A DNA stretch of 37,118 bases from a virus: positions 1 through 37,118 of the IMG/VR virus record IMGVR_UViG_3300045988_101868. One strand, given 5' to 3'. Below the pieces are notes generated by a model. The model made no database searches. It had not been told where the DNA came from and saw nothing but the letters and a program-made list of their open reading frames with translations. Both the position numbers and the translations under genes were made by a program. Below, one piece after another: positions 1 through 37,118 of the stretch. Positions within the stretch are counted from its first letter, which is position 1, and every line of letters begins with the position of its first letter.

Positions 1-48
1 AAAAGAAAAACCGCATACAAGCCTTAAAAACGGCTTGGTAATGCGGTT
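1..48 (-). terminator. Rho-independent terminator downstream of the tRNA fragment (left copy)
   Basis: Outer stem AACCGCAT/ATGCGGTT (9-16/41-48) with inner AAGCC/GGCTT (19-23/32-36). On the minus strand it is followed by TTTCTTTT (rc of 1-8). Confidence 0.6.
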
Positions 49-54
49 TATTTG

Positions 55-99
55 TGGAGCTGGTGAACGGACTTGAACCGTCGACCTACTGATTACGAA
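55..99 (-). pseudogene. Orphan 3' fragment (45 nt) of tRNA-Thr(CGU), anticodon loop to CCA
   Basis: The rc reads TTCGTAA (loop, anticodon CGT), TCAGT, AGGTC, GACGG-TTCAAGT-CCGTT (T arm), CACCAGC, T, CCA. Bases 100-104 (acatt) cannot form the anticodon stem, so this copy is truncated. Confidence 0.8.
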
Positions 100-153
100 A
101 CATTACAAGAATTTGAAAAAGTGCAGTAAACAAGCGTATTTTTATTATACATT

Positions 154-173
154 GACTAACATCAGACTAACAT
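154..173 (+). promoter_or_regulatory. Two direct GACTAACAT repeats 11 bp apart: candidate arm-type integrase sites (left arm)
   Basis: GACTAACAT at 154-162 and 165-173. The same pair with the same spacing and orientation occurs at 36952-36960/36963-36971. Confidence 0.55.
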
Positions 174-1352
174 CATTTTTTGCGGTTCTGCAATCGCAGA
201 GATGTAATCGTTTAGGTCTATAATTTTATTGATTTTCTTAATCTGATTTGTTTGCACTAAATGTGTATAAATATTCAAAGTCGTTTCGGGCTTTGCGTGT
301 CCGAGTTGGTTTTGGACATAAAGTAAATCTTGACCGCAAAAGAACAAGTTTGTAGCAAAAGTATGTCTTAGATAATGTGCGGTGAATCTTTCAATAACAA
401 AAGGAACGCCTTTTGGGTCGAACTTACTTTTCGGCTTTCGCTCATATTCGGAAAAATCTCCGTATTTAAGATTGAGGTCTGCCATATAGCTGTCCCACAG
501 TTCTCGCCACGCTGTTGTTGAGAAGAACTCCCCTTTTGTTGTAAGTACAACAAAGTCGGATTGTTTATGGTTCTTTTGATTTTTCAGAAAATCCACCAGG
601 GTGTGGGGAATATTGACTGTTCGTATGCCAGCCTTTGACTTTGCTCCTTGCACAATGTGCGGAGTTCCTGTCATTACAAGTTTTTGATGAACACTAATTT
701 GAGCATTTTCAAGGTCAATGTCATACCATTGCAACGCAAGGCATTCACTTAATCTTAAACCAGACAGCATCATGATCATAGCAGGAAGTTGTGCTCTGTG
801 TGGCATTTCCATAACCCACCGCTGTTCTTGCTCGGTCAATGCCCTGCGCTCGCTTACAGGTGCATTTTTCGGTATTCTGACATATGTTAATGGATTGTAG
901 TCAAGTATGCGGTTTTCAACAGCAAAGTCAAACACCTGCCTTGCGGTCATTCTGTAATCACGCAGAGTTTTCTTTGAAGTCGGTTTGCCTGTATGTGGAT
1001 TTCGTGCGAAATAGTCATTTATGATACATTGAAAATCTGCTTTTACAAGTTTGCTGATTGCAACATCGCCTAATACAGAAAACGGTTTAAGGTTTGTTTT
1101 ATAACTCTTATACTGCTTGTCAGAAGAAAGCAGAGCCTTTTTGTATATCAGCCAATTTTCGCAGAGTTCACTGAACGGCATATTCTCGCTAAGAATATCC
1201 ATACCTTTGCTGATTTTTAGCTTGATTTCATTTGCTTTGCGTGTAACCTCAGCTTGCGTTTTGCCAAATACAGACTTATACATAGCTTTGCCGTTTTCAT
1301 CTCGTCCGATATAGATATTTTTTTGATATCTGCCGTCTTTACGCTTTTTCAT
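162..1352 (-). CDS. int: Tyrosine recombinase / phage integrase
   Basis: Catalytic signature seen in translation: GLRLSE (R), KSKAGIRTV (K), HYLRHTF (HxxR), LGHAKP (H), NIYTH (Y). Start moved to ATG 1352 (MKKRKDGRY), which follows AAGGAG. Adjacent to attL. Confidence 0.95.
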   Translation of the reverse strand: MKKRKDGRYQKNIYIGRDENGKAMYKSVFGKTQAEVTRKANEIKLKISKGMDILSENMPFSELCENWLIYKKALLSSDKQYKSYKTNLKPFSVLGDVAISKLVKADFQCIINDYFARNPHTGKPTSKKTLRDYRMTARQVFDFAVENRILDYNPLTYVRIPKNAPVSERRALTEQEQRWVMEMPHRAQLPAMIMMLSGLRLSECLALQWYDIDLENAQISVHQKLVMTGTPHIVQGAKSKAGIRTVNIPHTLVDFLKNQKNHKQSDFVVLTTKGEFFSTTAWRELWDSYMADLNLKYGDFSEYERKPKSKFDPKGVPFVIERFTAHYLRHTFATNLFFCGQDLLYVQNQLGHAKPETTLNIYTHLVQTNQIKKINKIIDLNDYISAIAEPQKMMLV

Positions 1353-1386
1353 TTTATAACACTCCTTTTGTTTTAAAAAAGGGTGC

Positions 1387-1433
1387 AAAAATCCCTTGTG
1401 TTTTTATTCGATAAACTTGCAAAACACAAGGGA
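1387..1433 (-). terminator. Terminator-like or attenuator hairpin in the int leader
   Basis: Perfect 13-bp inverted repeat TCCCTTGTGTTTT / AAAACACAAGGGA (1392-1404 / 1421-1433) with a 16-nt loop. On the minus strand it is followed by TTTTT (rc of 1387-1391), 35 nt before the int start. Confidence 0.5.
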
Positions 1434-1445
1434 GTATGGTACAAT
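1417..1445 (+). promoter_or_regulatory. SigA-type promoter with no downstream ORF (drives the candidate sRNA)
   Basis: TTGCAA (1417-1422), 17-nt spacer, TACAAT (1440-1445). Confidence 0.55.
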
Positions 1446-1472
1446 TATATTGCTGTTTAAGTACCGTTGCAC
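1444..1472 (-). promoter_or_regulatory. Possible int promoter, face-to-face with the plus-strand promoter
   Basis: Minus strand reads GTGCAA (rc of 1467-1472), 17 nt, TATAAT (rc of 1444-1449). Its -10 box overlaps the plus-strand TACAAT by 2 bp. Confidence 0.35.
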
Positions 1473-1528
1473 CCTATGTGTAATGGTTTCCGCTCTACCC
1501 TGCGCCAACAGGATAGGGCGGATTTTTT
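1452..1528 (+). ncRNA. Candidate small RNA (about 75 nt) between int and the DUF4041 gene
   Basis: Bracketed by the 1417-1445 promoter and the 1490-1533 intrinsic terminator. No RBS-preceded ORF inside. Both neighbouring genes are on the opposite strand. Ends are predicted, not measured. Confidence 0.45.
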
Positions 1529-1533
1529 ATTTT
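1490..1533 (+). terminator. Intrinsic terminator, plus-strand oriented
   Basis: Stem CCGCTCTACCCTG / CAGGATAGGGCGG (1490-1502 / 1509-1521) with one mismatch and one G.T pair, and a 6-nt loop. It is followed by ATTTTTTATTTT. On the minus strand no T run follows. Confidence 0.7.
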
Positions 1534-1554
1534 AATAAATGTTACTGTAAAACC

Positions 1555-2874
1555 CTACGGCTTTAGTTGCTCTTTAATTTTAAGAGATTCACGATACTGT
1601 TCAGCCGGAGCAAGTCGAGTAAATTCTACCGTTTTATCGTAATTCTTTTTTACAACTTCTTCTATTTCATCAAGAGTAACATTAAAGAACTCTCGTCTTG
1701 TGTTAATCATATTGACTTTTCTATCCTCAAAGGCTTTATGTAAAGCTGCTTCAAGTGAAGGAGCATCGTCGGAAAAAATCATTGCGTGAACATCAAAGTT
1801 AAACGGAACAGAAGCGTCCCCAAGCTCATCAACTCGATCCATTGGTTCAAGTCTGCGTGTCATACCTATTTTATACACATTCTCTCCAAATGAACCAACA
1901 TTAGATATAATGTACACATAACCTGCTCTTGCATTTGCGGCTCTGTAATCAATATCTTTCATAGATTTATCAATTTCAGAAAGCTCGTTAATGATTTGTT
2001 CTTTTTTCTTGAGTAATTCTTCTTTATCAACATCGGCTGCGGTTTTAATTTGCTGTTCAAGATGTGATAGAGCGTTTTGATAGTGAGTTTGTTCCTTAGC
2101 TATTTTTTTACGAGTTTCTTCAATTTCTTTTTGTAGTTTAGCCTCTTCACGCATACGAGCTCTTATTTCTTTTTGTTCTTCCTTTTCATCTTGCTTTTTC
2201 TTTTTGTATTCAAGTGATAAGCAAAGTTCTTCGTGCTTGGCATTAAAATATTGAGTAGTTATTGCAATTCCCATAATGTTGCCAAGTTTTGAAATTGCTT
2301 CACAGGAACTACGCATCCTTTTTAATGCCGTATCAAAAGTATTGTACTTAACTTTATCAATAAGTTCATCACATTCACTATTGAATGCTCTAAGCAAAAG
2401 TTTTTGCATATCTTTAACCATTTTTTTGCCCTGACTTTTACTTCCATTTACAGTCCAATTAGTGTTACCGGTAACAGCCTGACCGTTTTTTATAAGAGCT
2501 TTTTGTGTATCTCGGATTTGAGATAATCTGTTTTTATACAATTCAGAAGAAGCAAAGTCATACTTAGGAGTATAAAGTCCGAAACTTTGTAACTCAATTT
2601 GTTCATCCATACAGATTATTTGAGATTGTTTGTTATTTATAGTGTTATTTAAACCGATAATTTTGTTGTTTAAATTATTGATCTCGTTATTTTTTTGCCC
2701 AATAACTGCATTTAAGTTATTAATATCATTTTGCAATTTCTGTGTGAGCATAAGTAAATTTTGGGCATTATACATTTCAGGAGTAAATGTGCTTCTAAGC
2801 TGATTAAGTTCAGCTTGTAAGCGTTCTACTTCTGACTTATATTGATTACCCTTAAAGGTATCAAGAAATCCCAT
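1555..2874 (-). CDS. DUF4041 plus C-terminal T5orf172/MUG113 (GIY-YIG-like) domain protein with an N-terminal Asn-rich coiled coil
   Basis: C-terminal GYVYIISN..YKIGMTRRLEPMDRVDELGDASVPFNFDVHAMIFS..EFF matches the T5orf172 pattern. The central FGLYTPKYDF..LLLRAFNSECD region matches the DUF4041 pattern. Start moved to ATG 2874 after AAGGAGA. Last gene of the repressor operon. Confidence 0.75.
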   Translation of the reverse strand: MGFLDTFKGNQYKSEVERLQAELNQLRSTFTPEMYNAQNLLMLTQKLQNDINNLNAVIGQKNNEINNLNNKIIGLNNTINNKQSQIICMDEQIELQSFGLYTPKYDFASSELYKNRLSQIRDTQKALIKNGQAVTGNTNWTVNGSKSQGKKMVKDMQKLLLRAFNSECDELIDKVKYNTFDTALKRMRSSCEAISKLGNIMGIAITTQYFNAKHEELCLSLEYKKKKQDEKEEQKEIRARMREEAKLQKEIEETRKKIAKEQTHYQNALSHLEQQIKTAADVDKEELLKKKEQIINELSEIDKSMKDIDYRAANARAGYVYIISNVGSFGENVYKIGMTRRLEPMDRVDELGDASVPFNFDVHAMIFSDDAPSLEAALHKAFEDRKVNMINTRREFFNVTLDEIEEVVKKNYDKTVEFTRLAPAEQYRESLKIKEQLKP

Positions 2875-2888
2875 ATCAATTCTCCTTA

Positions 2889-3107
2889 TCAAATAGCATT
2901 AGCCTCAAGCTCGTTATGAACAACAGGCTCATAATCATAAAAATGCTCGGATGTAATGTGCTTTAATTCGTGCTTAGCGGCTTTCTGTTGAGTATCATAG
3001 CTAAGCAGAATATTAATATATACATTGTAATTGCCGTCCTCATCTAAGACCGTTACGCCTCGTACGGTCAGCGGCAATTCTAAACCTCTAATAAAAATTT
3101 TTCCCAA
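2889..3107 (-). CDS. Minimal ImmA/IrrE-like metallopeptidase (72 aa)
   Basis: HELKH (HExxH) followed by SEH. TTG start 2 nt after the repressor stop. The XRE-plus-ImmA pairing is typical of ImmR/ImmA-type switches. Confidence 0.55.
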   Translation of the reverse strand: MGKIFIRGLELPLTVRGVTVLDEDGNYNVYINILLSYDTQQKAAKHELKHITSEHFYDYEPVVHNELEANAI

Positions 3108-3109
3108 AG

Positions 3110-3493
3110 CTATTCATCCTTTTTTAATGCTTCAATAATTCTGACTGCTTTTTTCACATCTTCTTTTGTAGCACCCTTAGTAAGACTAAATAACATTCTT
3201 AGTTCACTTCTGTTCTTGAGCTCCTCGAGGTATTTTTGGAGTTCAATGTCATCAGTCATTTTTGATGTTTTGTGTTCCTCTGTCAAATCAGATTTAAGAA
3301 TACCAAAATAGTCAGCCAAAAGTTGCATTTTGTCAACACGAGGGTATTTCTTTTCGTTTGCCCAGTCAGAAACAGTCGAAGCTGTTAAATTCAGATCCGT
3401 TACAAGATTCGATTGGGTTTTATTGTTAGTAGTCATATAATAGTTTAAATTCTTTGCAAAAATTTTTTTGTTAAGCTCACTATTATCGCTCAT
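3110..3493 (-). CDS. XRE-family HTH lysogeny repressor (CI-like)
   Basis: HTH segment KTQSNLVTDLNLTASTVSDWANEKKYP. Divergent from the Cro-like gene across a promoter/operator region. Confidence 0.85.
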   Translation of the reverse strand: MSDNSELNKKIFAKNLNYYMTTNNKTQSNLVTDLNLTASTVSDWANEKKYPRVDKMQLLADYFGILKSDLTEEHKTSKMTDDIELQKYLEELKNRSELRMLFSLTKGATKEDVKKAVRIIEALKKDE

Positions 3494-3522
3494 TAGATCA
3501 CCTACTTTTATGTTATATTTGC

Positions 3523-3551
3523 ATTATACACTAAAAGCGTAAAAAATTCAA
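3523..3551 (-). promoter_or_regulatory. Repressor-operon promoter
   Basis: Minus strand: TTGAAT (rc of 3546-3551), 17 nt, TATAAT (rc of 3523-3528). The spacer contains GCTTTTAGTGT. Confidence 0.65.
3528..3538. promoter_or_regulatory. Operator candidate O1 (ACACTAAAAGC, rc GCTTTTAGTGT)
   Basis: The 11-mer is identical, in inverted orientation, to 3591-3601. It lies in the spacer next to the -10 box of the repressor promoter. Confidence 0.55.
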
Positions 3552-3552
3552 G

Positions 3553-3568
3553 ATATTTTTAAAAATAT
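3553..3568. promoter_or_regulatory. Perfect 16-bp AT palindrome between the two -35 boxes
   Basis: ATATTTTTAAAAATAT is its own reverse complement. It lies between the -35 boxes at 3546-3551 and 3581-3586. Confidence 0.35.
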
Positions 3569-3580
3569 TTTGCTTTTTGC

Positions 3581-3609
3581 TTGACATTATGCTTTTAGTG
3601 TGATATTAT
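3581..3609 (+). promoter_or_regulatory. Early (Cro-side) promoter
   Basis: TTGACA (3581-3586), 17 nt, TATTAT (3604-3609). The spacer contains GCTTTTAGTGT. Confidence 0.7.
3591..3601. promoter_or_regulatory. Operator candidate O2 (GCTTTTAGTGT)
   Basis: Same 11-mer as O1, in the same position relative to the -10 box of the early promoter. Confidence 0.55.
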
Positions 3610-3635
3610 ATATGTGTACCAAGGAGGTGAGGCAA

Positions 3636-3860
3636 ATGGAATATCCTAAAATCACGTTAAAAGCTGCAAGGGTAAATGCTGGTTTATCTCAAAAAGAAGC
3701 AGCTGATATGCTTAATATTAGCAAGGAAACTCTTTCTAACTACGAAAAAGGAACATATTCGCCAAGTTGGGATATGGTGCATAGAATAGGTGAACTGTAT
3801 AGATTTCCTGTTGACTTTATTTTTTTGGGAAAAGATTTACGCTTAAAGCGTATTACTTGA
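3636..3860 (+). CDS. Cro-like XRE-family HTH protein
   Basis: GLSQKEAADMLNISKETLSNYEKG HTH. Start moved to ATG 3636 after GGAGGTG. Confidence 0.85.
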   Translation: MEYPKITLKAARVNAGLSQKEAADMLNISKETLSNYEKGTYSPSWDMVHRIGELYRFPVDFIFLGKDLRLKRIT

Positions 3861-3958
3861 TTTCTGTTATTTATCTTACAATTCAGTATAGCAAATCAGC
3901 TGTACAATAAGCCGGATTTTTAGACAGCAGAAAACAGCATAGGAAAGGAGGAGAGAAG

Positions 3959-4138
3959 ATGGGAGGAAAAATGATTGGCAACTATGCAAATGACGGAACA
4001 CTTTATATATCTGCAACAAATATTCAGGAGTTTAAATGCCTTATAAATAAGGCAAAAAAACAAGCTGACGAACTGCAAGATACAATTAATCAGCTTGAGT
4101 TTTTCAATTTTCATTTTAAGTTTGCGACTGATGAGTAG
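3959..4138 (+). CDS. Hypothetical 59-aa protein (below the ORF-track cut-off)
   Basis: ATG preceded by AGGAAAGGAGGAG. Translation is MGGKMIGNYANDGTLYISATNIQEF...FATDE. Preferred over the low-complexity antisense ORF 3920..4153. Confidence 0.45.
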   Translation: MGGKMIGNYANDGTLYISATNIQEFKCLINKAKKQADELQDTINQLEFFNFHFKFATDE

Positions 4139-4829
4139 CTTTTTGTTCTTCAATCATATTTTCAGCTATTGCTACAGAAATATCTGAATCTATAAAAGAC
4201 ACAATAGCATTTATAAATTCGACCAGGTTATCTATATTGTAATCTTTAAATTTTCGCTCGTAATGTGTTTCATCATTACCAAGCCATGAAGAGGCTACAG
4301 CTAATTTTTTAATTCTTTTGTTGTCAATATAATCGTTGATACATCTTGATAACGGTGCTTTAACAATTTTATCTTTATCCTCAGGGTGTAACAATATAGC
4401 ATAATCTTTTACTAAAAATTCTAAAGATTTTCTGTAAGCCATACCTGAAATATCTTTTAAACCATACTGTTCAGAAGCGTATGCTTGGTTATATATGTCG
4501 CAAAAATCAGGTGACAAGTCTTTTATGTGTTTAGGAAATTCTCGTTCTTCTGTATTGTAAACAGGCTCAAAACTTTTAAATTCAGTTTTATTGTAATAAG
4601 GTCCTATATAGTAATTCCCTAAAAATGTTCTTTCACAATTTTGGCAGAAAAAATGAACAAAAAGATTTGGGTTGGTAAGTTCATCTTCGATATAGTAAGA
4701 ACTTAAACAAAATGGGTTGCCCGCTTTGTGGCACATGGGGCAACCAGGCGGATATTCGATTTCAAGATTTTTATGGTGTTTTTCATCGTTCAATGATTTA
4801 CAGTTGTATATGATCTTTCGGATAGTCAA
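4116..4829 (-). CDS. Zn-ribbon (CxxC...CxxC) plus DUF4145 domain protein
   Basis: N-terminal CPMCH...CQNC. C-terminal YRKSLEFLVKD...LAVASSWLGNDETHY matches the DUF4145 pattern. TTG start after AAAGGAG with short spacing. Oriented against the early operon. Confidence 0.7.
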   Translation of the reverse strand: MTIRKIIYNCKSLNDEKHHKNLEIEYPPGCPMCHKAGNPFCLSSYYIEDELTNPNLFVHFFCQNCERTFLGNYYIGPYYNKTEFKSFEPVYNTEEREFPKHIKDLSPDFCDIYNQAYASEQYGLKDISGMAYRKSLEFLVKDYAILLHPEDKDKIVKAPLSRCINDYIDNKRIKKLAVASSWLGNDETHYERKFKDYNIDNLVEFINAIVSFIDSDISVAIAENMIEEQKATHQSQT

Positions 4830-4857
4830 GGACTCCTTTCAGTATAGTATTGAAAAT

Positions 4858-4886
4858 ATTGTAACATCTAATTACAAATAATACAA
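4858..4886 (-). promoter_or_regulatory. Candidate own promoter of the DUF4145 gene
   Basis: Minus strand: TTGTAT (rc of 4881-4886), 17 nt, TGT-TACAAT (extended -10, rc of 4858-4866). Confidence 0.45.
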
Positions 4887-4909
4887 CAAAAATCGAGGAG
4901 GTGAGGAAA

Positions 4910-5116
4910 ATGGCAAAACTTAAACTTATTGACACAAAGGACAAGTTTCTTCTTGAAATTGACGGAACAGAAATCCCGTATGTTACAAGCTATCAGATTA
5001 CCCGAACAGTAGGCGATGTGGTACTGCTCAAGCTGGCACTCAGCGTTGCAAATGTGGAAAAGGTTGAAATCGTATCAGACAAAATTACAGAGGATAACAG
5101 AGGTGTAAGGCAATAA
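4910..5116 (+). CDS. Hypothetical protein
   Basis: ATG 4910 after GGAGGTG. Same strand as the early operon. Confidence 0.7.
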   Translation: MAKLKLIDTKDKFLLEIDGTEIPYVTSYQITRTVGDVVLLKLALSVANVEKVEIVSDKITEDNRGVRQ

Positions 5117-5135
5117 ATTTATAAGGAGGGTATAT

Positions 5136-5390
5136 ATGCCAAAATCTAAGAAAACAGTAACCAACTGGGACGATGTTCCGATCTACATAGATTTGCCATT
5201 GCTGGCAAATCTTTGGGGGTTCTCGGTTGATTGTTTAAAGAAAAAAGCACAGTCGGGCGTTTTGCCGGCGGCAAAGATGTTCGGTGAGTGGAGAATATCT
5301 AAAGAGGACGCAAAGGCTTACTTCGAAAAGGCTTACAACGAAACGCAGGAGGGAATAAAAAAAGATGGAAGTAATTATCAACAAATCTAA
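5136..5390 (+). CDS. HTH_17/excisionase-family DNA-binding protein (Xis candidate)
   Basis: GVLPAAKMFGEWRISKEDAKAYF resembles the excisionase/MerR-type winged HTH signature. AAGGAGG RBS. Confidence 0.55.
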   Translation: MPKSKKTVTNWDDVPIYIDLPLLANLWGFSVDCLKKKAQSGVLPAAKMFGEWRISKEDAKAYFEKAYNETQEGIKKDGSNYQQI

Positions 5391-5604
5391 ATCGTATTCG
5401 TTTAAGGAGGTTGAAATCGGAGATGTGTTCTCTGATGATTTAGGACGCTTTATGATGAAAGTATCATACGAAACAGCAATTTGTTTAGATGATAATACAG
5501 TCTATGGCATTAACAGCAAGACAAAATGCTATCTGAGGGACTGTGTGATTATAGAGCGTGAACTGCTCGAAAATCTCAAGAAAGGAGCAAACGGATATGA
5601 GTAA
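5365..5604 (+). CDS. Hypothetical protein
   Basis: ORF within the early operon. Overlaps the upstream gene by 26 nt. GGAGGG lies 11 nt upstream. Confidence 0.55.
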   Translation: MEVIINKSKSYSFKEVEIGDVFSDDLGRFMMKVSYETAICLDDNTVYGINSKTKCYLRDCVIIERELLENLKKGANGYE

Positions 5605-5836
5605 GCTTGAAAACTTACAAATCTGCATCAAAGACGGCGAGGTTATAGTTTTGCAGGGACTTGACACCGTTACGGCTGAAAGGCTTGAGGACATTTTAAA
5701 CTATGTTGCAGAAGTCAAGGAAAGCCTTGACAGGCACAAGCTAAACAATAGAGCAACAGGCATTAAGCGTGCGGCTCACAATTGCAAGAAGTTTATTAGG
5801 TGCTTAAAAGGTGCCTTATCTGATGAGGAGGTGTAA
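5597..5836 (+). CDS. Hypothetical protein
   Basis: Start moved to ATG 5597 (MSKLENLQ) after AAAGGAG. Overlaps the stop of the previous ORF. Confidence 0.65.
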   Translation: MSKLENLQICIKDGEVIVLQGLDTVTAERLEDILNYVAEVKESLDRHKLNNRATGIKRAAHNCKKFIRCLKGALSDEEV

Positions 5837-5839
5837 CGG

Positions 5840-6082
5840 ATGACATATCTTGAATTTATAAGCAGGAACGGTCACATATGTTCAGAAAGCGAATTTGAAA
5901 TTGCAAGAGCACAAGCAAAGAATAAACTTGCAGTTATAGTAAATCGTTTTGGTGATGCAAATGGTTTGAGACTGAAAAGTGATTATTTAAATCAGATTGT
6001 ACTTGAAGAAATTAGAGCTGAAAGGTATTCATCAACAATGTTTGATTTGTTTAGTTGCAAAAGAATATCCCACATTGCGTGA
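5840..6082 (+). CDS. Hypothetical protein
   Basis: ATG after GGAGGTG. The 3' end is embedded in a 13-bp hairpin. Confidence 0.7.
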   Translation: MTYLEFISRNGHICSESEFEIARAQAKNKLAVIVNRFGDANGLRLKSDYLNQIVLEEIRAERYSSTMFDLFSCKRISHIA

Positions 6083-37019: not shown

Positions 37020-37067
37020 AAAAGAAAAACCGCATACAAGCCTTAAAAACGGCTTGGTAATGCGGTT
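37020..37067 (-). terminator. tRNA terminator (right copy)
   Basis: Same hairpin and T run as 1..48. Confidence 0.6.
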
Positions 37068-37073
37068 TATTTG

Positions 37074-37118
37074 TGGAGCTGGTGAACGGACTTGAACCGT
37101 CGACCTACTGATTACGAA
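37074..37118 (-). tRNA. 3' 45 nt of tRNA-Thr(CGU). Partial at the window edge; the 5' half is expected beyond 37118.
   Basis: Same sequence as 55..99: anticodon loop TTCGTAA, variable loop AGGTC, T arm, acceptor strand, encoded CCA. Whether the 5' half follows cannot be seen. Confidence 0.7.

What the first reader, a model, noticed from the sequence alone, without database searches (positions are those of the whole stretch)
1555..3551. DUF4041/T5orf172 nuclease-like protein co-transcribed with the lysogeny repressor
The XRE repressor (3493-3110), mini ImmA (3107-2889) and a 439-aa DUF4041 plus T5orf172/MUG113 protein (2874-1555) are packed with gaps of 2 and 14 nt. They lie behind a single TTGAAT-17-TATAAT promoter. 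The nuclease-like protein should therefore be made whenever the repressor is made, that is, in the lysogen. The gene is very A+T rich (15/60 G+C at 2641-2700). It has an Asn-rich coiled-coil N terminus that is unlike the core phage genes. T5orf172 is a GIY-YIG-related module. Genes in the slot between integrase and repressor are classic positions for superinfection-exclusion or abortive-infection functions. XRE plus ImmA-like peptidase plus a variable third gene is also a recurrent three-gene conflict module.
Basis: partly seen in the sequence, partly recalled or inferred. Interest (0 to 1): 0.65.

Follow-up and report, generated by a model that had tools for sequence, protein, structure and literature searches.

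The report
Prophage-carried SNIPE anti-phage nuclease gene
The gene next to this temperate phage's repressor is a membrane-anchor-less relative of SNIPE (PD-lambda-1), a known bacterial nuclease that cuts the DNA of incoming phages as it is injected, so this is a new example of a known defence system and not a new kind of system.

Summary
Genes for a 127-aa XRE repressor, a 72-aa HExxH protein and a 439-aa DUF4041 plus T5orf172 protein sit 2 and 14 nt apart on the minus strand. They lie behind one promoter in a divergent switch region, and a terminator separates them from the integrase gene. The 439-aa protein is a full-length homologue of PD-lambda-1, renamed SNIPE (PADLOC E 4e-164). It is 41% identical to the characterised E. 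coli protein, and the catalytic Glu is conserved (E414 aligns with E375). SNIPE is a single-protein nuclease that cleaves siphovirus DNA during injection (Nature 2026). The window is a complete 37-kb temperate siphovirus from gut Clostridia. The repressor and mini-peptidase pair is constant in related phages. The slot between that pair and the integrase gene is variable cargo: SNIPE, a TIR protein, a CapR-like protein, another T5orf172 protein, or nothing. One less ordinary feature remains. This copy has no transmembrane helix. It starts with a conserved peptide (MG-φ-φ-D-φ-F-K) that replaces the anchor in close relatives and resembles MinE's membrane-targeting sequence. This is a testable lead, not a result.

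The parts
3523..3551 (-). Promoter-like site TTGAAT-17-TATAAT for the XRE / mini-peptidase / SNIPE operon
   Evidence: 10 of 12 matches. It lies in the divergent intergenic region. Its -10 hexamer abuts one arm of the 15-nt inverted repeat.
3528..3601 (.). Candidate operator pair: 15-nt inverted repeat with arms at 3528-3542 and 3587-3601
   Evidence: 93% complementary, 44 nt between arms. One arm abuts the minus-strand -10 hexamer. The other lies in the spacer of the plus-strand promoter at 3581-3609.
3110..3493 (-). 127-aa XRE-family repressor (N-terminal HTH plus a roughly 50-aa C-terminal part)
   Evidence: Pfam HTH_26 and HTH_3. PHROG 2967 transcriptional regulator, E 7e-19. It is divergent from the Cro-like HTH gene at 3636-3860.
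2889..3107 (-). 72-aa minimal M78 (ImmA/IrrE-like) metallopeptidase core
   Evidence: HExxH (H46, E47, H50) and E66/E68 (ELEAN) are invariant in 35 homologues. Distant family members carry PF06114, or are named ImmA by their source. The window protein itself has no Pfam hit even at E 10.
1555..2874 (-). 439-aa SNIPE / PD-lambda-1 homologue without a transmembrane helix
   Evidence: PADLOC PD-Lambda-1 E 4.4e-164, covering residues 13-437. PHROG 1847 E 1.4e-158. 41% identity to the E. coli SNIPE protein over residues 2-434. The highest 19-residue Kyte-Doolittle hydropathy is 0.75, so no TM helix is predicted.
2836..2874 (-). Codons 1-13: conserved N-terminal peptide MGFLDTFKGNQYK
   Evidence: The motif is present in 56 of 84 homologous loci but in only 7 of 729 background ORFs. 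It is absent from all 78 TM-bearing representatives. In relatives that are 70% identical it is replaced by a zinc ribbon plus TM helix.
2584..2835 (-). Codons 14-97: Asn-rich coiled-coil stalk
   Evidence: AlphaFold2 predicts helices at 4-28 and 32-97, with pLDDT up to 95. Only generic coiled-coil Pfam hits were found.
2236..2403 (-). Codons 158-213: DUF4041 (PF13250, now named SNIPE in Pfam)
   Evidence: The renamed family label appears.
1645..1923 (-). Codons 318-410: T5orf172 / GIY-YIG-type nuclease domain, with the catalytic Glu E375 at 1750-1752
   Evidence: E. coli E414 aligns with E375. Y319, Y321, G337, R340, R341, E375, N388 and N391 are invariant, and Y334 nearly so, in 44 homologues. 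Foldseek matches T5orf172 proteins at 2.6-3.6 Å rmsd.
1489..1535 (+). Hairpin plus T-run that marks the 3' edge of the mobile cassette; it reads as a terminator on the plus strand
   Evidence: Fold. The 95%-identity block shared with L085 ends here, and the central 20 bp is inverted between the two phages.
1386..1433 (-). Intrinsic terminator-like hairpin (13-bp stem) plus U-run between the SNIPE gene and int
   Evidence: -18.5 kcal/mol, z-score -4.0, followed by AUUUUUG.
162..1352 (-). Tyrosine integrase
   Evidence: Pfam Phage_integrase E 3.8e-20.

Best explanation
The 439-aa gene encodes a homologue of SNIPE (PD-lambda-1). SNIPE is a single-protein defence nuclease that, in E. coli, sits at the inner membrane, binds DNA through DUF4041, associates with the tape measure protein of an infecting siphovirus, and cuts the phage genome as it is injected. 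In this window the gene is cargo in the lysogeny operon of a complete 37-kb temperate siphovirus of gut Clostridia. The operon order is promoter/operator, XRE repressor, 72-aa M78-type peptidase core, SNIPE, terminator, then int. The protein should therefore be made whenever the repressor is made. It should protect the lysogen, and so the prophage, against other phages. It should not harm the resident prophage, because SNIPE does not act on DNA already inside the cell. What is shown: family membership, conserved catalytic residues, the gene layout, and the variable-cargo nature of the slot. What is inferred: expression in lysogens, anti-phage activity in this host, and the mode of localisation. 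This copy has no transmembrane helix. I propose that its conserved N-terminal peptide (MG-φ-φ-D-φ-F-K, where φ is a hydrophobic residue) substitutes for the anchor, either as a MinE-like amphipathic membrane-targeting sequence or as a docking peptide. The XRE and mini-peptidase pair is the phage's own ImmR/ImmA-type immunity switch and is not a partner of SNIPE.
For: Family membership:
- PADLOC PD-Lambda-1 scores E 4.4e-164 over residues 13-437, and Pfam finds DUF4041 plus T5orf172.
- The protein is 41% identical to the E. coli phage PhiR26_1 protein annotated PD-lambda-1. That protein carries all nine residues named in the SNIPE paper, and its E414 aligns with window E375.
- The GIY-YIG motif residues are invariant in 44 homologues.
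- The AlphaFold2 model has the same elongated layout as SNIPE: helix, DUF4041, long helices, then a nuclease domain. Foldseek matches the nuclease domain to T5orf172 proteins.

Mechanism of the family, from PMC13190303:
- SNIPE cleaves DNA during injection and associates with the tape measure protein.
- It has no effect on prophage induction.
- 34% of homologues lack a TM helix.
- A Gram-positive homologue protects S. thermophilus against phages.

Operon:
- The gaps are 2 and 14 nt, and each gene has a Shine-Dalgarno sequence.
- The promoter and operators lie in the divergent region, and a terminator follows the gene.

Cargo slot:
- Homologues of the 72-aa gene always follow an XRE gene, but the next gene varies: int directly, a CapR-like gene, a ThsB_TIR gene, a 488-aa T5orf172 gene, genes of unknown function, or SNIPE.
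- The mini-peptidase plus SNIPE cassette recombines with two XRE alleles and at least three integrase types.
- The same position is found in EJ-1, Javan180, PLE3 and CDMH1.
- The upstream neighbour is an HTH, M78 or S24 protein in many of 78 loci. The downstream neighbour is an integrase or recombinase in 28 of 75 loci.
- 60 of 80 IMG/VR loci lie less than 4 kb from a contig end.

Phage context:
- The window encodes a tape measure protein, portal, terminase, major head protein and endolysin.
- A 99-nt terminal overlap indicates a complete genome.

N-terminal peptide:
- Searches give its distribution. MinE's membrane-targeting residues are listed in PMC5473585.
Against: - There are no expression data and no phenotype for this gene or this host.
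- There is no transmembrane helix. In E. coli, removing the TM helix made SNIPE toxic and sent it to the nucleoid. This copy must therefore be restrained in a way that the sequence does not show.
- The peptide's similarity to MinE rests on a short motif. A simple hydrophobic-moment calculation does not separate it from background, and does not separate MinE's own sequence either.
- Promoter-like sites are no more frequent in the region than in shuffled sequence.
- The hairpin directly after the stop codon is oriented as a terminator for the opposite strand.
- The PDB fold search gave no significant match. Only weak Slx1 GIY-YIG matches appeared.
Confidence: 0.8

Rival explanations
1. The three genes form one regulated defence unit of the CapH/CapP type. 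In this reading the XRE protein represses the nuclease gene, and the M78 peptidase cleaves it after DNA damage or infection. The nuclease would then be induced on demand and not made constitutively in lysogens.
For: The XRE protein weakly matches the PADLOC capH profile (E 0.0012) and RmrA profiles. CapP/CapH, IrrE/DdrO and ImmA/ImmR are related pairs (PMC13228613). The C-terminal third of the XRE gene travels with the mini-peptidase and SNIPE genes in one block that is 95% identical between phages.
Against: - The XRE gene faces a Cro-like gene across an operator-bearing switch region, and it is the only repressor candidate of the phage.
- The nuclease gene lies downstream in the same transcription unit as the XRE gene. 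It would therefore be made together with the repressor, not repressed by it from a separate promoter.
- The XRE plus 72-aa pair occurs with unrelated cargo genes, or with none.
- The 72-aa protein lacks the C-terminal domains that CapP and IrrE use to sense ssDNA.
Confidence: 0.08
2. The protein is a toxic or abortive-infection nuclease. It would be held in check by the 72-aa protein or by the repressor, and it would kill the infected cell instead of cutting incoming DNA.
For: The protein has no membrane anchor. E. coli SNIPE without its TM helix is toxic and binds the nucleoid. T5orf172 domains occur in several candidate defence systems, for example PDC-S57.
Against: - SNIPE is a direct defence in which infected cells survive.
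- The 72-aa gene is not linked to SNIPE homologues below about 75% identity: it is present in only 5 of 55 viral loci with homologues below 70% identity.
[quoted passage not shown] This argues for the same mode of action with a different tether.
Confidence: 0.07
3. The gene serves the phage's own life cycle, for example as a replication or recombination factor, a helicase or ATPase, or a homing endonuclease. Several database records annotate homologues in this way.
For: Homologues are annotated as 'replication', 'helicase', 'AAA-ATPase' or 'chromosome segregation ATPase'. T5orf172 and GIY-YIG domains also occur in homing endonucleases (general knowledge).
Against: - No ATPase or helicase domain is found by Pfam, NCBIfam or PHROGs.
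- The gene is transcribed with the repressor, away from the early and replication genes.
- It is absent from otherwise similar phages that share the same XRE and mini-peptidase pair, so it is dispensable cargo.
Confidence: 0.04

Closest known systems
SNIPE / PD-lambda-1 of E. coli (Vassallo et al. 2022, PMC9519451; Saxton et al. 2026, PMC13190303)
   Same: Both have a coiled-coil stalk, DUF4041, a long helix and a C-terminal GIY-YIG/T5orf172 nuclease. The two proteins are 41% identical over about 430 residues, and the catalytic Glu is conserved. Both are single-gene systems and both are found on prophages.
   Different: The window protein has no N-terminal periplasmic tail or TM helix. It starts with a 13-residue conserved peptide instead. 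The host is a Gram-positive-type gut Clostridia bacterium, not E. coli. The gene is placed in the repressor operon next to int. In PhiR26_1 it lies near ren and rha.
TM-less SNIPE homologues described in the same paper (34% of 474 homologues, with DivIVA-like, PH or DUF4428 N-termini, or none)
   Same: The window protein lacks both a TM helix and a globular N-terminal domain, like the example shown in that paper's Extended Data Fig. 10b.
   Different: The paper's text does not contain the word 'amphipathic', and the sections I read describe no short conserved N-terminal peptide. Here that peptide is present in 56 of 84 related loci, and it is mutually exclusive with TM helices.
Ltp superinfection-exclusion lipoprotein of S. 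thermophilus phage TP-J34 (PMC3952083)
   Same: It occupies the same slot and orientation: cI, a 122-aa putative metalloproteinase, the exclusion gene, then int. It is transcribed in the prophage and blocks entry of incoming phage DNA.
   Different: Ltp is an unrelated 142-aa extracellular lipoprotein that blocks injection. It is not a cytoplasmic nuclease that cuts the DNA.
ImmR/ImmA of ICEBs1 and phage repressor plus M78 anti-repressor pairs
   Same: An XRE repressor gene is immediately followed by an HExxH M78-type gene, upstream of int.
   Different: The peptidase here is only 72 aa. It ends right after the third metal-ligand motif (ELEAN), and it falls below Pfam detection.

Membership tests
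SNIPE / PD-lambda-1 | Full-length match to the family profile (PADLOC PD-Lambda-1) | tested here: met
   PDLC03976 scores E 4.4e-164 over residues 13-437, matching profile positions 53-476 of 491.
SNIPE / PD-lambda-1 | Central DUF4041 domain (PF13250) | tested here: met
   E 2.4e-20, 72.6 bits against a cut-off of 27, over the full profile 1-56.
SNIPE / PD-lambda-1 | C-terminal GIY-YIG/T5orf172 nuclease with the catalytic Glu (E414 in E. coli) | tested here: met
   T5orf172 scores E 1.4e-19. E414 aligns with E375, which is invariant in 44 homologues. Foldseek matches T5orf172 proteins.
SNIPE / PD-lambda-1 | N-terminal transmembrane anchor | tested here: not met
   The highest 19-residue Kyte-Doolittle hydropathy is 0.75. 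The profile match starts after the anchor region. The authors report that 34% of homologues also lack a TM helix. This feature therefore defines the E. coli protein, not the sequence family.
SNIPE / PD-lambda-1 | Membrane localisation, and cleavage of phage DNA during injection | not testable with these tools
   This needs microscopy or fractionation, and labelled-DNA injection assays.
SNIPE / PD-lambda-1 | Acts alone as a single-gene system | tested here: met
   The neighbours of homologues vary, and no partner gene is conserved.
ImmA/IrrE (peptidase M78), for the 72-aa protein | HExxH plus a downstream Glu metal ligand | tested here: met
   H46, E47, H50, E66 and E68 are invariant in 35 homologues.
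ImmA/IrrE (peptidase M78), for the 72-aa protein | Match to Pfam PF06114 | tested here: inconclusive
   The window protein has no hit even at E 10. Two 70-aa relatives at 53% identity carry PF06114, and one relative is named ImmA by JGI. A profile search against PDB sequences found nothing relevant.
ImmA/IrrE (peptidase M78), for the 72-aa protein | Adjacent to, and downstream of, its XRE-family substrate repressor | tested here: met
   This holds in the window and in every related locus examined.
CapH/CapP regulator pair | A peptidase with a C-terminal GAF-like domain that forms an ssDNA-binding groove | tested here: not met
   The protein is 72 aa and ends after the catalytic core. The feature is described in PMC13228613.

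The most novel reading that the evidence does not exclude
TM-less SNIPE homologues of Firmicutes phages may reach the site of phage DNA entry through a short conserved N-terminal peptide (MG-φ-φ-D-φ-F-K...). This peptide would act like MinE's amphipathic membrane-targeting sequence, giving peripheral and possibly reversible membrane binding in place of a fixed anchor. That would explain how a nucleoid-binding nuclease without a TM helix can be tolerated in a lysogen. It would also add a second, exchangeable tethering mode to the SNIPE mechanism.
Probability: 0.35. Interest if true: 0.45.

Novelty: new member of a known kind. Interest (0 to 1): 0.3.

Why it matters
The result places a recently explained defence mechanism, cutting phage DNA at the point of entry, inside the lysogeny operon of temperate phages of human and animal gut Clostridia. 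No such function has been tested in these hosts. The survey shows that the slot between the repressor/mini-peptidase pair and the integrase gene is a swap site for defence cargo. That slot could be mined for further systems. The result also gives a concrete handle, the N-terminal peptide, on an open point of the SNIPE model: how homologues without a transmembrane helix are kept off the host chromosome. The core finding itself is ordinary for a specialist.

Tried and rejected
- **Megablast of window 1-6000 against GenBank phages:** no match, so there is no close cultured relative.
- **Rfam and ARAGORN on the whole window:** nothing found.
- **NCBIfam:** no informative hit for any of the three proteins.
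- **Foldseek of the full-length model against the PDB:** no match at E <= 0.001. Coiled-coil proteins dominate the list. Slx1 GIY-YIG nucleases appear only weakly (probability 0.33-0.63).
- **Profile of 44 homologues against PDB sequences:** only coiled-coil matches, the best being P22-type tail needle gp26 at E 0.0035.
- **Profile of the 72-aa family against PDB sequences:** nothing relevant.
- **Pfam on the N-terminal 110 residues at E <= 10:** the 25 best-scoring of 46 matches were all generic coiled-coil families. Neither DivIVA nor PspA was among those listed.
- **Hydrophobic moment of the N-terminal peptide:** not informative, because MinE's own membrane-targeting sequence also scores low.
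- **An apparent F-x-D-x-F match just after the TM helix of E. coli SNIPE:** rejected as chance, because other TM-bearing homologues lack it.
- **The idea that the 72-aa protein is a dedicated partner of SNIPE:** rejected, because the two are linked only in near-identical cassettes, and the 72-aa gene follows XRE genes regardless of cargo.
Full report
**What is in the sequence**

Three minus-strand ORFs lie at the stated coordinates:
- a 127-aa XRE-family protein (3493-3110);
- a 72-aa ORF with a TTG start (3107-2889);
- a 439-aa ORF (2874-1555).

They are separated by 2 and 14 nt, and each has its own Shine-Dalgarno sequence. A tyrosine integrase gene follows on the same strand (1352-162).

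Upstream, a 142-nt intergenic region holds two promoter-like sites. TTGAAT-17-TATAAT (3551-3523) is on the minus strand. TTGACA-17-TATTAT (3581-3609) is on the plus strand and faces a 74-aa Cro-like HTH gene (3636-3860). Promoter-like matches are no commoner in this region than in shuffled sequence. The argument for these two sites therefore rests on their position, and on a 15-nt inverted repeat (3528-3542 / 3587-3601) that abuts or overlaps both. This is the layout of a phage genetic switch.

Downstream of the 439-aa gene, on the sense strand, is a 13-bp-stem hairpin followed by AUUUUUG (1433-1386; -18.5 kcal/mol, z-score -4.0). It lies just before int. The anatomy therefore supports one transcription unit of XRE, 72-aa gene and 439-aa gene that ends before the integrase gene. 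This is an inference from sequence. There are no expression data.

**The genome context**

Bases 1-99 are identical to bases 37020-37118, so the window is a complete, circularly assembled genome of 37,019 bp. It encodes a 1392-aa tape measure protein, a portal protein, a large terminase subunit, a major head protein and an endolysin. It also carries the 3' part of a tRNA next to int, as expected for an attachment site. ARAGORN finds no whole tRNA. The window is therefore a temperate siphovirus.

It has no close relative among GenBank phages. The 439-aa protein recurs at 96-100% identity in many gut metagenome assemblies and IMG/VR contigs. At 53-76% identity it occurs in genomes labelled Acutalibacteraceae, Ruminococcus, Lachnospiraceae and other Clostridia.

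**What the 439-aa protein is**

Pfam confirms DUF4041 (E 2.4e-20) and T5orf172/MUG113 (E 1.4e-19). The PADLOC profile for the defence system PD-Lambda-1 matches almost end to end, at E 4.4e-164. Current Pfam labels PF13250 as 'SNIPE'.

PD-lambda-1 was found in a functional screen of E. coli DNA (PMC9519451). It was characterised in 2026 as SNIPE (PMC13190303). The paper reports the following:
- The protein is an inner-membrane-anchored nuclease.
- Its DUF4041 domain binds DNA.
- It associates with the tape measure protein of the infecting siphovirus and cleaves the phage genome during injection.
- It spares DNA already in the cell, so prophage induction is unaffected.

The protein annotated PD-lambda-1 in E. 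coli phage PhiR26_1 carries all nine residues that the paper names. It aligns with the window protein at 41% identity over residues 2-434. The catalytic E414 falls on window E375.

The GIY-YIG-type motif residues (Y319, Y321, G337, R340, R341, E375, N388, N391) are invariant in 44 homologues, and Y334 is nearly invariant.

An AlphaFold2 model (mean pLDDT 76) shows the same elongated plan:
- helices at 4-28 and 32-97;
- a compact domain over roughly residues 106-205;
- helices at 207-278 and 281-316;
- an alpha/beta domain at 318-420.

Foldseek against viral models matches a full-length siphovirus protein at E 1e-17. It then matches T5orf172 domains at 2.6-3.6 Å rmsd. The PDB search was uninformative apart from weak Slx1 GIY-YIG matches.

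The family is large. 1595 clusters at 50% identity score E <= 1e-30. A homologue from S. thermophilus gives more than a 3-log reduction in plaquing by some dairy phages, so the system works in Gram-positive hosts.

**The two upstream genes**

The 72-aa protein belongs to a tight family in which H46, E47, H50 (HExxH) and E66/E68 (ELEAN) are invariant. This motif pair is the pattern I recall for the metal-ligand residues of ImmA/IrrE M78 peptidases. The protein stops directly after it.

The window protein gives no Pfam hit even at E 10. Two 70-aa relatives carry PF06114, and one relative is named ImmA by its source. 'Mini ImmA' is therefore a fair description, but catalytic activity is unproven.

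In every related locus examined, this gene directly follows an XRE gene of 115-128 aa. What comes next differs:
- int directly (L088);
- a CapR-like gene (L089-L091);
- two genes of unknown function (L092);
- a ThsB-type TIR gene (L093);
- a 488-aa T5orf172 gene (L094, L095);
- SNIPE (the window, L085).

Conversely, SNIPE homologues below about 75% identity rarely have this 72-aa neighbour. The XRE plus mini-peptidase pair is therefore the phage's immunity switch, of the ImmR/ImmA type. The third position is a cargo slot. SNIPE needs no partner, as published.

A block that is 95% identical between this phage and L085 runs from the last third of the XRE gene to a hairpin just after the SNIPE stop codon (window 3244-1490). 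In IMG/VR this cassette is combined with two XRE alleles and at least three integrase types, in all combinations.

**Recurrence of the position**

The order repressor, optional peptidase, DUF4041 gene, integrase is found in several phages:
- Streptococcus prophages EJ-1 and Javan180;
- Lactobacillus phage PLE3;
- C. difficile phage CDMH1.

Among 78 genomic loci, the upstream neighbour is an HTH protein in 15, an M78 peptidase in 11 and an S24 peptidase in 10. These counts overlap, because one protein can match more than one family. Among 75 loci, the first sizeable downstream gene is a tyrosine integrase in 20 and a serine recombinase in 8. Of 80 viral contigs, 60 have the gene within 4 kb of a contig end.

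The same slot in S. thermophilus phage TP-J34 holds ltp. This gene is expressed in the prophage and encodes a lipoprotein that blocks DNA injection. It lies between int and a 122-aa putative metalloproteinase gene (PMC3952083). The two proteins are unrelated, but they occupy the same place and block the same step of infection.

**The one unusual feature**

The window protein has no transmembrane helix (highest 19-residue hydropathy 0.75). The PADLOC match starts at profile position 53, after the anchor region.

The SNIPE paper reports that 34% of homologues lack a TM helix. It proposes other membrane-directing N-termini, such as DivIVA-like and PH domains. It also shows that E. coli SNIPE without its TM helix is toxic and binds the nucleoid.

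Here the protein begins MGFLDTFKGNQYK. A peptide of the form M-[GSA]-φ-φ-D-φ-F-[KN]..K, where φ is a hydrophobic residue, starts 56 of 84 homologous loci. It starts only 7 of 729 other ORFs from the same loci. Among 134 full-length family representatives:
- the strict form occurs in 10 of the 56 TM-less proteins, and a looser form in 25 of the 56;
- the strict form occurs in 0 of the 78 TM-bearing proteins, and the looser form in 5 of the 78.

In relatives that are 70% identical from residue 20 onwards, the first 19 residues are replaced by a zinc ribbon plus TM helix. The peptide is therefore the exchangeable counterpart of the anchor.

It resembles the N-terminal membrane-targeting sequence of MinE, which has hydrophobic L3, L4, F6, F7 and L8 followed by a basic cluster (PMC5473585). 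This is a lead based on a short motif. A hydrophobic-moment calculation did not discriminate it. The word 'amphipathic' does not occur in the SNIPE paper, and the sections I read describe no such peptide. A docking function for a host or phage protein is equally possible.

**Verdict**

The protein is a member of an already named and mechanistically described defence family, carried as prophage cargo in a position that is typical for such genes. It is a new member of a known kind. The TM-less N-terminal peptide is the only element that goes slightly beyond what is published.

Noticed in passing
window 1-99 and 37020-37118: The first and last 99 bases are identical. The window is therefore a circularly assembled, complete phage genome of 37,019 bp.
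   Followed up: yes
window about 55-107, minus strand: The 3' part of a tRNA gene (T-arm and acceptor end) lies next to int. It is probably the attP core. ARAGORN finds no complete tRNA.
   Followed up: partly
window 1490-1526; L085 7354-7386: The hairpin directly after the SNIPE stop codon is the point where homology with a related phage ends. Its central 20 bp (loop and inner stem) is exactly inverted between the two phages, which is a small flip within an inverted repeat.
   Followed up: partly
window 1417-1535, plus strand: A TG-extended promoter-like site (TTGCAA-17-TACAAT) is followed by a strongly structured stretch of about 85 nt that ends in a hairpin plus U-run (-33.6 kcal/mol, z-score -4.3). 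This is a candidate small RNA that converges on the 3' end of the SNIPE gene. It has no Rfam match. Its 5' part is not conserved in L085, although the terminator hairpin is.
   Followed up: partly
window 4116-4829, minus strand: A 237-aa gene points against the early genes and has about 30% G+C. Its N-terminus has a CxxC...CxxC pattern. It matches PHROG 1305 ('DNA binding protein', E 7e-40) but nothing in Pfam or PADLOC. It may be a second gene expressed in lysogens.
   Followed up: no
L088-L096 (relatives of the 72-aa gene): In related prophages the slot between the XRE/mini-peptidase pair and int carries different cargo. Examples are a ThsB-type TIR protein, a CapR-like protein, a 488-aa T5orf172 protein without a DUF4041 hit on record, and two proteins of unknown function (159 and 231 aa). 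In one case the slot is empty. It is a hotspot that could be mined for defence genes.
   Followed up: partly
L097-L113 (IMG/VR): The near-identical mini-peptidase plus SNIPE cassette is found with two XRE alleles (96% identical over the full length, or 54% identical over the C-terminal part only). It is also found with integrases at 100%, 73% and 28% identity. XRE and integrase types occur in all combinations. One recombination joint lies inside the XRE gene, between the HTH domain and the C-terminal domain.
   Followed up: partly
window protein residues 41-107 (nt 2554-2754): The Asn-rich heptad region weakly resembles the coiled coil of P22-type tail needle gp26 (PDB 4lin, E 0.0035). The SNIPE paper notes such similarity for some homologues. 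It may be no more than coiled-coil composition.
   Followed up: no
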